DNA from: Escherichia coli
Lineage (GTDB): Bacteria > Pseudomonadota > Gammaproteobacteria > Enterobacterales > Enterobacteriaceae
DNA: 64,000 bases
NCBI RefSeq assembly: GCF_003334335.1
Contig: NZ_QOWQ01000008.1
Strand: one strand, 5' to 3'
The position numbers were made by a program, and so were the translations under genes. Under the pieces are notes generated by a model. That model worked only from the letters and a program-made list of their open reading frames with translations, was not told the DNA's origin and searched no databases. Numbering within the stretch: position 1 is the first letter of the stretch; every line of letters begins with the position of its first letter. Below are positions 45,806 to 45,930 of this stretch, piece by piece.

Positions 45806-45900
45806 AAAAAAAAAGCCAGCACCCGGCTGGCTAAGTAATACTGGAAGCAATGTGAGCAATGTCGTGCTTTCAGGTTCTCCGCGAGGGTCTTCCTGATCGC
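45806..45900 (-). ncRNA. ryhB: Fur-repressed small RNA RyhB (Hfq-dependent iron-sparing sRNA)
   Basis: Reverse complement of 45806-45900 reads GCGATCAGGAAGACCCTCGCGGAGAACCTGAAAGCACGACATTGCTCACATTGCTTCCAGTATTACTTAGCCAGCCGGGTGCTGGCTTTTTTTTT, the RyhB sequence I recall, including its terminator hairpin and U tract. Confidence 0.93.
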
Positions 45901-45902
45901 GA

Positions 45903-45930
45903 GACAATAATAATCATTCTCATTCGCACT
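45903..45930 (-). promoter_or_regulatory. Fur box overlapping the ryhB promoter
   Basis: acaataataatcattctcattcgc (rc gcgaatgagaatgattattattgt) immediately upstream of the RyhB 5' end; matches the GATAATGATAATCATTATC-type Fur consensus. Confidence 0.7.

What the first reader, a model, noticed from the sequence alone, without database searches (positions are those of the whole stretch)
45806..45930. RyhB sRNA with its Fur box, between yhhX and yhhY
Seen in sequence: the minus strand of 45806-45900 matches the RyhB sequence I recall, including the terminal hairpin GCCAGCCGGGTGCTGGC plus U tract, and is preceded by a Fur-box-like acaataataatcattctcatt. It lies in a gap with no ORF, so a protein-only annotation would miss it. 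Well known, but it is the only RNA gene I can support in the window, and it couples iron starvation to the feoABC operon, whose own Fur-box-like site is about 40 kb upstream (4911-4936).
Basis: partly seen in the sequence, partly recalled or inferred. Interest (0 to 1): 0.35.

Follow-up and report, generated by a model that had tools for sequence, protein, structure and literature searches.

The report
RyhB iron-starvation small RNA gene
This is the textbook E. coli small regulatory RNA RyhB, with its Fur-repressed promoter, base-for-base identical to the K-12 reference gene: a correct call, but ordinary and fully known.

Summary
Confirmed and already known. The minus strand of 45806-45900 is 100% identical to ryhB (b4451) of E. 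coli K-12 MG1655. It lies between yhhX (44652-45689, -) and yhhY (46022-46510, +). Rfam RyhB (RF00057) matches over its whole model at 83.1 bits against a gathering score of 55, E = 3.6e-14. This is the only gathering-level Rfam hit in the 64 kb.

A sigma-70 promoter, TGGACA-18-TATTAT, places the start at 45900. A 7-bp GC-rich hairpin plus nine U ends the RNA. The only match within 3 mismatches to the 19-bp Fur consensus in the window (45903-45921, 0.01 expected) lies over the -10 element. Published gel shifts confirm Fur binding at this site (PMC2189734).

The locus is present in 5425 of 5426 complete E. coli genomes. Its 26-nt core is exact in more than 120 loci from other gamma-proteobacteria, and the terminator stem there shows compensatory changes.

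Two side claims fail or need qualifying. I found no evidence that RyhB acts on feoABC; both are simply Fur-repressed. RyhB is also not the only annotated RNA gene here, because AsompR lies at 1321-1658. Interest is low.

The parts
45806..45900 (-). ryhB gene: 95-nt RyhB small RNA. The 5' end (nt 1) is at 45900 and the 3' end of the U tract is at 45806.
   Evidence: 100% identical to MG1655 ncRNA ryhB b4451. Rfam RF00057 scores 83.1 bits over 45807-45871. A 95-nt product is reported in PMC4509938.
45866..45900 (-). 5' stem-loop SL1 (RyhB nt 1-35). Stem UCAGG (nt 5-9) pairs with CCUGA (nt 27-31), closed by G1-C35 and C2-G34.
   Evidence: RNAalifold consensus of 23 Enterobacteriaceae sequences. 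The stem columns pair in 100% of cells but are almost invariant, while the apical part varies. The Rfam model covers this region only from nt 30 on. The three-stem-loop architecture is described in PMC4231740.
45840..45866 (-). Conserved core, target-pairing region and SL2 (RyhB nt 35-61, CACGACAUUGCUCACAUUGCUUCCAG plus U61). The sodB-pairing 9-mer GACAUUGCU is nt 38-46, window 45863-45855.
   Evidence: The 26-nt core is found exactly in more than 120 loci of Enterobacterales, Vibrionales and Aeromonadales. The Rfam SL2 pairs are all standard. Nine contiguous pairs form with sodB AGCAAUGUC across its AUG.
45833..45839 (-). A/U-rich single-stranded spacer (AUUACUU, nt 62-68) just upstream of the terminator. 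Inferred internal Hfq-binding segment.
   Evidence: Read from the sequence. The columns are A/U-rich and variable in length in relatives. The general role of A/U-rich sites and the 3' poly-U in Hfq binding comes from PMC4231740 and PMC4509938. Hfq binding was not tested here.
45806..45832 (-). Rho-independent terminator SL3. Stem AGCCAGC/GCUGGCU (45832-45814), loop CGGGU. The U tract of nine is 45814-45806, and its first U closes the stem.
   Evidence: Terminator scan, single-sequence fold and Rfam structure. There are compensatory changes at 2 of 7 pairs across 69 sequences: 14 double-change cells against 1.2 in shuffles. A poly-U of 9 and about 20% read-through are reported in PMC4509938.
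45907..45936 (-). Sigma-70 promoter of ryhB. The -35 element TGGACA is at 45936-45931, the spacer is 18 nt, and the -10 element TATTAT is at 45912-45907. The start is G at 45900.
   Evidence: Promoter scan, 10 of 12 matches, the only hit in 45650-46100. The -35 to -10 block is invariant or nearly so in 23 Enterobacteriaceae sequences.
45903..45927 (.). Fur operator: overlapping Fur-box 19-mers at 45903-45921 (3 mismatches on +, 4 on -) and 45909-45927 (5 mismatches). They cover the -10 hexamer and the spacer.
   Evidence: PMC2189734 reports a 25.2-bit Fur site centred at -15 of ryhB, overlapping two weaker sites and confirmed by gel shift. A Fur-box match within 4 mismatches lies upstream of 61 of 74 short-form homologues, against a best match of about 8.4 mismatches in shuffled sequence.
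44652..45689 (-). Context: yhhX (putative oxidoreductase), downstream of ryhB on the same strand, 116 nt after the terminator.
   Evidence: 345-aa ORF, annotated as yhhX in MG1655 and PGAP.
46022..46510 (+). Context: yhhY (N-acetyltransferase), divergent from ryhB.
   Evidence: Annotated in MG1655 and PGAP.

Best explanation
The locus is the ryhB gene of an E. coli K-12-like strain. It encodes the 95-nt Hfq-dependent small RNA RyhB.

**Transcription control.** When iron is plentiful, Fe2+-Fur binds the operator that overlaps the -10 element and spacer of the ryhB promoter (45903-45927) and blocks transcription. When iron is scarce, Fur leaves and RNA polymerase starts at G 45900. It terminates at the GC-rich hairpin plus U9 (45832-45806).

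**Action of the RNA.** The 3' poly-U and the adjacent A/U-rich stretch load the RNA onto Hfq. The conserved core (nt 35-60) then pairs with the translation-initiation regions of mRNAs for non-essential iron-using proteins such as sodB, sdhCDAB, acnA and bfr. Pairing blocks ribosome binding and leads to mRNA decay, which spares iron.

**Shown here:** sequence identity with the reference gene; the Rfam match; the promoter, Fur-box and terminator anatomy; conservation and terminator covariation; and seed complementarity to the sodB start region.

**Taken from the literature, or from my own knowledge of it:** Fur binding (gel shift, read here); Hfq binding through the poly-U (read here); the target list as summarised in the introduction of PMC7315122; and, from my own knowledge, that decay of the paired mRNA is RNase E-dependent.

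**Inferred:** that this strain's copy behaves the same way.
For: - **Identity.** 95 of 95 nt match MG1655 ryhB b4451, and the flanks are 99.98% identical to MG1655.
- **Rfam.** RF00057 at 83.1 bits (gathering 55), full length, posterior probabilities near 1.
- **Promoter and terminator.** TGGACA-18-TATTAT and the hairpin-U9 terminator.
- **Fur box.** The only Fur-consensus match within 3 mismatches in the 64 kb overlaps the -10 element.
- **Published Fur binding.** PMC2189734 reports a 25.2-bit Fur site at -15 of ryhB, confirmed by gel shift, with ryhB between yhhX and yhhY.
- **Spread in E. coli.** The locus is in 5425 of 5426 complete genomes at 95% identity or more.
- **Wider conservation.** The 26-nt core is exact in more than 120 loci of other genera. 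The promoter and Fur box are invariant in 23 Enterobacteriaceae. The terminator shows compensatory A-U to C-G or G-C changes.
- **Target pairing.** The seed GACAUUGCU pairs with sodB AGCAAUGUC across the AUG, with interrupted extension to the Shine-Dalgarno sequence.
- **Literature on architecture and function.** Three stem-loops, with SL1 and SL3 target-independent (PMC4231740). A 95-nt product, poly-U of 9, and a 3' poly-U needed for Hfq binding (PMC4509938). RyhB repressed by Fur-Fe2+, with targets Bfr, SodB, AcnA and SdhCDAB (PMC7315122).
Against: Nothing argues against the identification. The limits are these:

- No expression data exist for this window.
- The single-sequence fold is not more stable than shuffles (z = -0.59). 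Its SL1 differs from the alignment consensus, so thermodynamics alone would not have flagged the RNA.
- SL1 and SL2 stems show conservation but no covariation in my alignments. SL2 could not vary because the homologues were retrieved by exact match to the core.
- The duplex-energy test is weak. Even sodB ranks only at the 28th percentile of random segments.
Confidence: 0.98

Rival explanations
1. The Fur-controlled promoter mainly serves the downstream protein gene yhhX. The 'sRNA' would then be the leader of a ryhB-yhhX co-transcript, or it would have that role in addition to acting as an sRNA.
For: - yhhX lies on the same strand, 116 nt after the terminator.
- No other sigma-70-like promoter was found between the terminator and the yhhX ATG.
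- The Fur site was first assigned to yhhX by Vassinova and Kozyrev, as summarised in PMC2189734.
- About 20% of polymerases read through the ryhB terminator on plasmids, and co-transcription with yhhX is 'suspected but not shown' (PMC4509938).
Against: - A strong, conserved, covarying terminator sits between the two genes.
- Termination is reported to be enhanced under iron depletion, exactly when the promoter fires.
- Read-through products do not bind Hfq.
- RyhB homologues occur in many genomic contexts and as second copies in other genera, so the RNA is the conserved unit.

At most this is an extra output of the locus, not an alternative identity.
Confidence: 0.15
2. One reading: RyhB directly regulates feoABC by base pairing and so couples iron starvation to ferrous-iron uptake.
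For: Both loci respond to iron, and both have Fur sites. RyhB is known to activate some uptake-related mRNAs such as shiA (mentioned in PMC4231740), so positive control of an uptake system is not absurd.
Against: - The papers I read list feoABC as a direct Fur, FNR and ArcA target and do not list it as a RyhB target (PMC4676285; PMC7157518).
- Full-text searches for RyhB with feoA or feoB turned up no paper, among those I opened, that describes such pairing.
- The best duplex between the RyhB seed and feoA -120..+30 (-13.6 kcal/mol, with a 14-nt interior loop) is weaker than that of 85% of random window segments.
Confidence: 0.04
3. The region encodes a small protein rather than an RNA. The candidates are the mechanical ORFs overlapping it: 95 aa at 45712-45999 (-), 53 aa at 45746-45907 (-) and 34 aa at 45859-45963 (+).
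For: These ORFs appear in the six-frame list.
Against: - No CDS is annotated here in MG1655 or by PGAP.
- The 95-aa ORF would start upstream of the mapped promoter and run through a terminator.
- Relatives differ by 1-2-nt indels inside the RNA, which would shift any frame, while RNA stems, promoter and Fur box stay intact.
- The conservation pattern is that of an RNA: an invariant 26-nt core and a covarying hairpin.
Confidence: 0.01

Closest known systems
RyhB (ryhB, b4451; formerly SraI) of Escherichia coli K-12 MG1655; Rfam RF00057
   Same: Everything testable matches: 95 of 95 nt, the same flanking genes yhhX and yhhY, and the same promoter, Fur operator and terminator.
   Different: Nothing within the gene. 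The surrounding window differs from MG1655 by 8 substitutions and 1 indel in 48.3 kb, has an intact glpR, and lacks IS1E in yrhA.
RyhB orthologues and paralogues in other Enterobacterales. Two copies per genome occur in Yersinia, Photorhabdus, Pantoea and Serratia. From my own knowledge, Salmonella has RyhB-1/RfrA and RyhB-2/RfrB (IsrE).
   Same: The 26-nt core is identical. There is a short spacer, then a GCCAGC-type terminator, and a Fur box upstream in most: 61 of 74 have a match within 4 mismatches.
   Different: The 5' third (SL1) is unrelated in sequence outside Enterobacteriaceae. The terminator stem carries compensatory substitutions. E. coli has a median of one copy per genome.
Long-form RyhB of Vibrionales
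   Same: The core sequence is the same. That it belongs to a Fur-regulated iron-sparing regulon is from my own knowledge.
   Different: No terminator lies within 50 nt of the core (42 loci), and the Fur box is often not within 110 nt upstream. This fits a much longer RNA with extra 5' and 3' sequence.
PrrF1/PrrF2 of Pseudomonas aeruginosa (functional analogues; from my own knowledge)
   Same: They are Fur-repressed sRNAs that repress sodB and sdh mRNAs to spare iron. They work like RyhB.
   Different: They are not members of the same sequence family and were not retrieved by the core search. This was not tested further here.

Membership tests
RyhB sRNA (Rfam RF00057) | Covariance-model score at or above the curated gathering threshold over the full model | tested here: met
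   83.1 bits against 55, E 3.6e-14, model positions 1-67 of 67, window 45807-45871 on the minus strand.
RyhB sRNA (Rfam RF00057) | Conserved core and seed sequence GCACGACAUUGCUCACAUUGCUUCCAG | tested here: met
   Present at 45840-45867. The 26-nt version is exact in more than 120 loci of Enterobacterales, Vibrionales and Aeromonadales.
RyhB sRNA (Rfam RF00057) | Rho-independent terminator (GC-rich hairpin plus long 3' poly-U), which also forms the Hfq-binding module | tested here: met
   A 7-bp stem, 5-nt loop and U9. Compensatory changes occur at 2 of 7 pairs in 69 homologues. Hfq binding itself was not tested.
RyhB sRNA (Rfam RF00057) | Fur box overlapping the promoter, giving iron-responsive transcription | tested here: met
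   In sequence, 45903-45921 has 3 mismatches to the consensus, is unique in the window, and overlaps the -10 element. Fur binding to this sequence is shown by gel shift in PMC2189734. Regulation in this strain was not tested.
RyhB sRNA (Rfam RF00057) | Complementarity of the seed to the translation-initiation region of the canonical target sodB | tested here: met
   Nine contiguous pairs, GACAUUGCU with AGCAAUGUC, span the sodB AUG of MG1655 and extend to the Shine-Dalgarno sequence. The duplex energy alone is not discriminating.
RyhB sRNA (Rfam RF00057) | Induction by iron starvation or fur deletion, Hfq dependence, and decay of target mRNAs | not testable with these tools
   Known for the identical K-12 sequence from the literature (PMC7315122; PMC4509938). 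It needs Northern blots or reporter assays.
E. coli ryhB locus (b4451) | Position between yhhX and yhhY, and identity to the reference gene | tested here: met
   The locus is present in 5425 of 5426 complete E. coli genomes.

The most novel reading that the evidence does not exclude
Read-through of the ryhB terminator yields a Fur-controlled ryhB-yhhX co-transcript. This would make the uncharacterised oxidoreductase YhhX part of the iron-starvation response and make ryhB a dual-output locus, like sgrS-setA.

My evidence does not exclude this. No separate sigma-70-like promoter was found in the 116-nt gap. About 20% read-through is reported. The idea is already in print as an untested suggestion.
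Probability: 0.25. Interest if true: 0.2.

Novelty: already known. Interest (0 to 1): 0.05.

Why it matters
RyhB is a central regulator of bacterial iron economy, so annotating it correctly matters for interpreting this region. A PGAP-annotated RefSeq genome with the identical sequence carries no feature at this position. Nothing here is new biology: the gene, its Fur operator, its structure and its mechanism have been characterised for more than two decades. The value of this check is that it confirms the call, corrects the feoABC link, and corrects the 'only RNA gene' statement.

Tried and rejected
1. **Single-sequence folding as evidence.** The MFE is -24.1 kcal/mol with z = -0.59 against shuffles, which is not significant. 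Its 5' hairpin disagrees with the alignment consensus. I did not use it as support.
2. **Covariation within Enterobacteriaceae.** In the 23-sequence alignment A1 all stems are essentially invariant, so the test is uninformative. I widened the set to 69 sequences (A2), where only the terminator can vary. SL2 lies inside the exact-match search pattern and cannot be tested this way.
3. **RNAduplex energy as a target test.** The positive control sodB ranks only at the 28th percentile of random segments. The method can therefore say only that feoA shows nothing special. It does not prove absence of pairing.
4. **Primary papers.** Masse & Gottesman 2002 (PMC123697) and Masse et al. 2005 (PMC1251601) are not held. 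Their content is cited only through papers that summarise them.
5. **Small-protein reading of the overlapping ORFs.** Rejected on annotation, frame-breaking indels and the conservation pattern.
6. **Looser Rfam scan (E up to 1).** It added only sub-threshold REP-like naRNA4 and ES036 hits and chance matches such as a plant snoRNA and a Burkholderia sRNA.

Full report
**Observation**

The reverse complement of window 45806-45900 reads GCGATCAGGAAGACCCTCGCGGAGAACCTGAAAGCACGACATTGCTCACATTGCTTCCAGTATTACTTAGCCAGCCGGGTGCTGGCTTTTTTTTT. The quoted Fur-box-like string is the + strand of 45904-45924.

An Rfam 15 scan of the whole window at gathering thresholds returns one hit, RF00057 RyhB. It lies at 45807-45871 on the minus strand, scores 83.1 bits against a family threshold of 55, has E = 3.6e-14, and covers model positions 1-67 of 67. 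ARAGORN finds no tRNA or tmRNA in the window.

**Identity**

A megablast of 45700-46050 against all complete E. coli genomes finds the locus in 5425 of 5426 genomes. It is always chromosomal, with a median of one copy, and every best match is 95% identical or more.

MG1655 annotates ncRNA ryhB (b4451) at 3580922-3581016 on the minus strand, between yhhX (b3440) and yhhY (b3441). That 95-nt interval occurs exactly, with no mismatch, at window 45806-45900.

The window as a whole is 99.98% identical to MG1655 over 48.3 kb, so this is a K-12-like strain. A PGAP-annotated RefSeq record with the identical 351 bp lists only yhhX and yhhY and has no feature for ryhB.

**Anatomy**

- **Promoter.** The consensus scan of 45650-46100 finds a single sigma-70-like promoter, on the minus strand. 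It reads TGGACA (45936-45931), an 18-nt spacer, then TATTAT (45912-45907), with 10 of 12 matches. This places the start at G 45900, the annotated 5' end.
- **Terminator.** The same scan finds AGCCAGC-CGGGT-GCTGGCT at 45832-45814, followed by T's. Counting the T that closes the stem gives nine U (45814-45806). This matches the published description of a 95-nt RyhB with a poly-U of 9 (PMC4509938).
- **Fur operator.** A search for the Fur consensus GATAATGATAATCATTATC with up to 3 mismatches gives one hit in 64 kb, at 45903-45921, with 0.01 expected. A second register at 45909-45927 has 5 mismatches. The operator therefore covers the -10 hexamer and the spacer, which is the classical arrangement for repression by occlusion. 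Chen et al. 2007 report a 25.2-bit Fur site centred at -15 of ryhB, overlapping two weaker sites. They confirmed it by gel shift and state that ryhB lies between yhhX and yhhY (PMC2189734).

**Comparative evidence**

They come from Enterobacterales, Vibrionales and Aeromonadales.

In 23 Enterobacteriaceae sequences the block from the -35 element through the Fur box is invariant or nearly so. The apical part of the 5' hairpin and the terminator loop vary, including 1-2-nt indels that are incompatible with a reading frame.

RNAalifold on these sequences gives three elements:

- a 5' stem-loop, with UCAGG nt 5-9 pairing with CCUGA nt 27-31, closed by G1-C35 and C2-G34;
- a short central hairpin inside the core;
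- the terminator.

This fits the three-stem-loop architecture (SL1, SL2, SL3) described from probing data in PMC4231740. Within this family the stems are invariant, so there is no covariation signal.

In a wider alignment of 69 short-form sequences the terminator helix shows changes on both sides at 2 of 7 pairs, from A-U to C-G or G-C. There are 14 double-change cells against 1.2 in column shuffles, and 0 of 500 shuffles reach the observed covariation score. 98% of cells pair, against 25-46% when partners are slid. SL2 cannot be tested this way because it lies inside the search pattern.

A Fur-box match within 4 mismatches lies within 110 nt upstream of the core in 61 of 74 short-form homologues. 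Shuffled upstream sequence gives a best match of about 8.4 mismatches.

**Mechanism**

With this window's RyhB and the MG1655 sodB leader, the core pairs GACAUUGCU (nt 38-46, window 45863-45855) with AGCAAUGUC across the sodB AUG. Interrupted pairs extend to the Shine-Dalgarno sequence. This is the canonical interaction as I know it from the literature.

The remaining steps are taken from published work on the identical sequence:

- Fur-Fe2+ represses ryhB, and RyhB lowers the mRNAs for Bfr, SodB, AcnA and SdhCDAB (PMC7315122 introduction).
- The 3' poly-U is required for Hfq binding and for function (PMC4231740; PMC4509938).

That this strain's copy behaves in the same way is an inference from 100% identity.

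1. *The feoABC link.* feoA starts at window 5046. The site at 4911-4936 coincides, after coordinate conversion, with the cluster of predicted Fur sites that Chen et al. place over the Fur boxes annotated by Kammler et al.. It has more than 5 mismatches to the 19-mer consensus. The papers I read list feoABC and ryhB as parallel members of the direct Fur regulon, with FNR and ArcA also acting on feo (PMC4676285; PMC7157518). None describes RyhB acting on feo. The best duplex between the seed and the feoA leader is weaker than that of 85-90% of random window segments. That test is weak, since sodB itself ranks only at the 28th percentile. The coupling is therefore through Fur, not through RyhB. 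At most there is the general indirect feedback in which RyhB-driven iron sparing re-activates Fur (summary of Masse 2005 in PMC2189734).

2. *'Only RNA gene in the window'.* This is true for Rfam and tRNA scans. However, MG1655 annotates the antisense RNA AsompR (b4842), and its 338 nt occur exactly at window 1321-1658.

3. *'No ORF in the gap'.* Mechanical ORFs do overlap the region, but none is annotated. The indel pattern in relatives argues against coding.

**Surroundings**

yhhX begins 116 nt downstream of the terminator on the same strand. The scan found no other sigma-70-like promoter in between. Morita et al. measured about 20% read-through of the ryhB terminator. They note that co-transcription with yhhX is suspected but unproven, that read-through products do not bind Hfq, and that termination improves under iron depletion. 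This is the only open question attached to the locus, and it is already in print.

**Verdict**

It is already known in every respect. Interest is low (0.05).

Noticed in passing
window 1321-1658 (+): Identical to the MG1655 ncRNA asompR (b4842, small antisense RNA AsompR), which overlaps the 5' end of ompR. It has no Rfam family, so it is invisible to the Rfam scan. It is a second annotated RNA gene in the window.
   Followed up: partly
window 47922-48416 and 48303-48311: yrhA is an intact 164-aa ORF here. In MG1655 it is split by IS1E, inserted after the position equal to window 48311, with 48303-48311 as the duplicated 9-bp target. The window therefore comes from a K-12-like strain that lacks this IS1 insertion.
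   Followed up: partly
window 24731-25489 (-), extra base near 25349: glpR is an intact 252-aa ORF. MG1655 annotates glpR as a pseudogene and is one base shorter here. This is the single indel in 48.3 kb of alignment.
   Followed up: partly
window 46973: A single C-to-T difference from MG1655 inside yhhZ. PGAP names yhhZ an Hcp1-family type VI secretion effector, and MG1655 names it a putative endonuclease. It is the only mismatch in the 4.4 kb around ryhB.
   Followed up: no
window 4632-4669, 11097-11136, 12766-12800, 28487-28569, 56664-56701, 62571-62608: Sub-threshold Rfam hits to naRNA4 (27-40 bits, gathering 59.5) and ES036 (31 bits, gathering 37.6). I read these as probable REP-type intergenic palindromes. 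None reaches a gathering score.
   Followed up: no
window 4860-4940 (feoA upstream): The published feoA Fur-site clusters map to about 4867 and about 4920-4926 after coordinate conversion from PMC2189734. It has more than 5 mismatches to the 19-mer Fur consensus, far weaker than the ryhB operator.
   Followed up: partly
window 45768-45783 (-) and the 45690-45805 gap: A second, weak terminator-like hairpin (6 pairs, 3 of them G-C, poor T tail) lies between ryhB and yhhX. No sigma-70-like promoter for yhhX was found in the gap. This is relevant to the untested idea of a ryhB-yhhX co-transcript.
   Followed up: partly
L001 (NZ_CP030240.1) 3001-3351: A PGAP-annotated RefSeq K-12 derivative with the identical ryhB sequence has no annotated feature for it. 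The curated MG1655 record does annotate it.
   Followed up: yes
L009/L010, L007/L008, L028/L029, L030/L031, L054/L055; L086 11593-12078: Many non-Escherichia genomes carry two ryhB copies with the same core but different 5' parts and terminators: Yersinia, Photorhabdus, Acerihabitans, Pantoea and Serratia. One locus (L086) has two copies 306 bp apart, each with its own Fur-box-like site.
   Followed up: no
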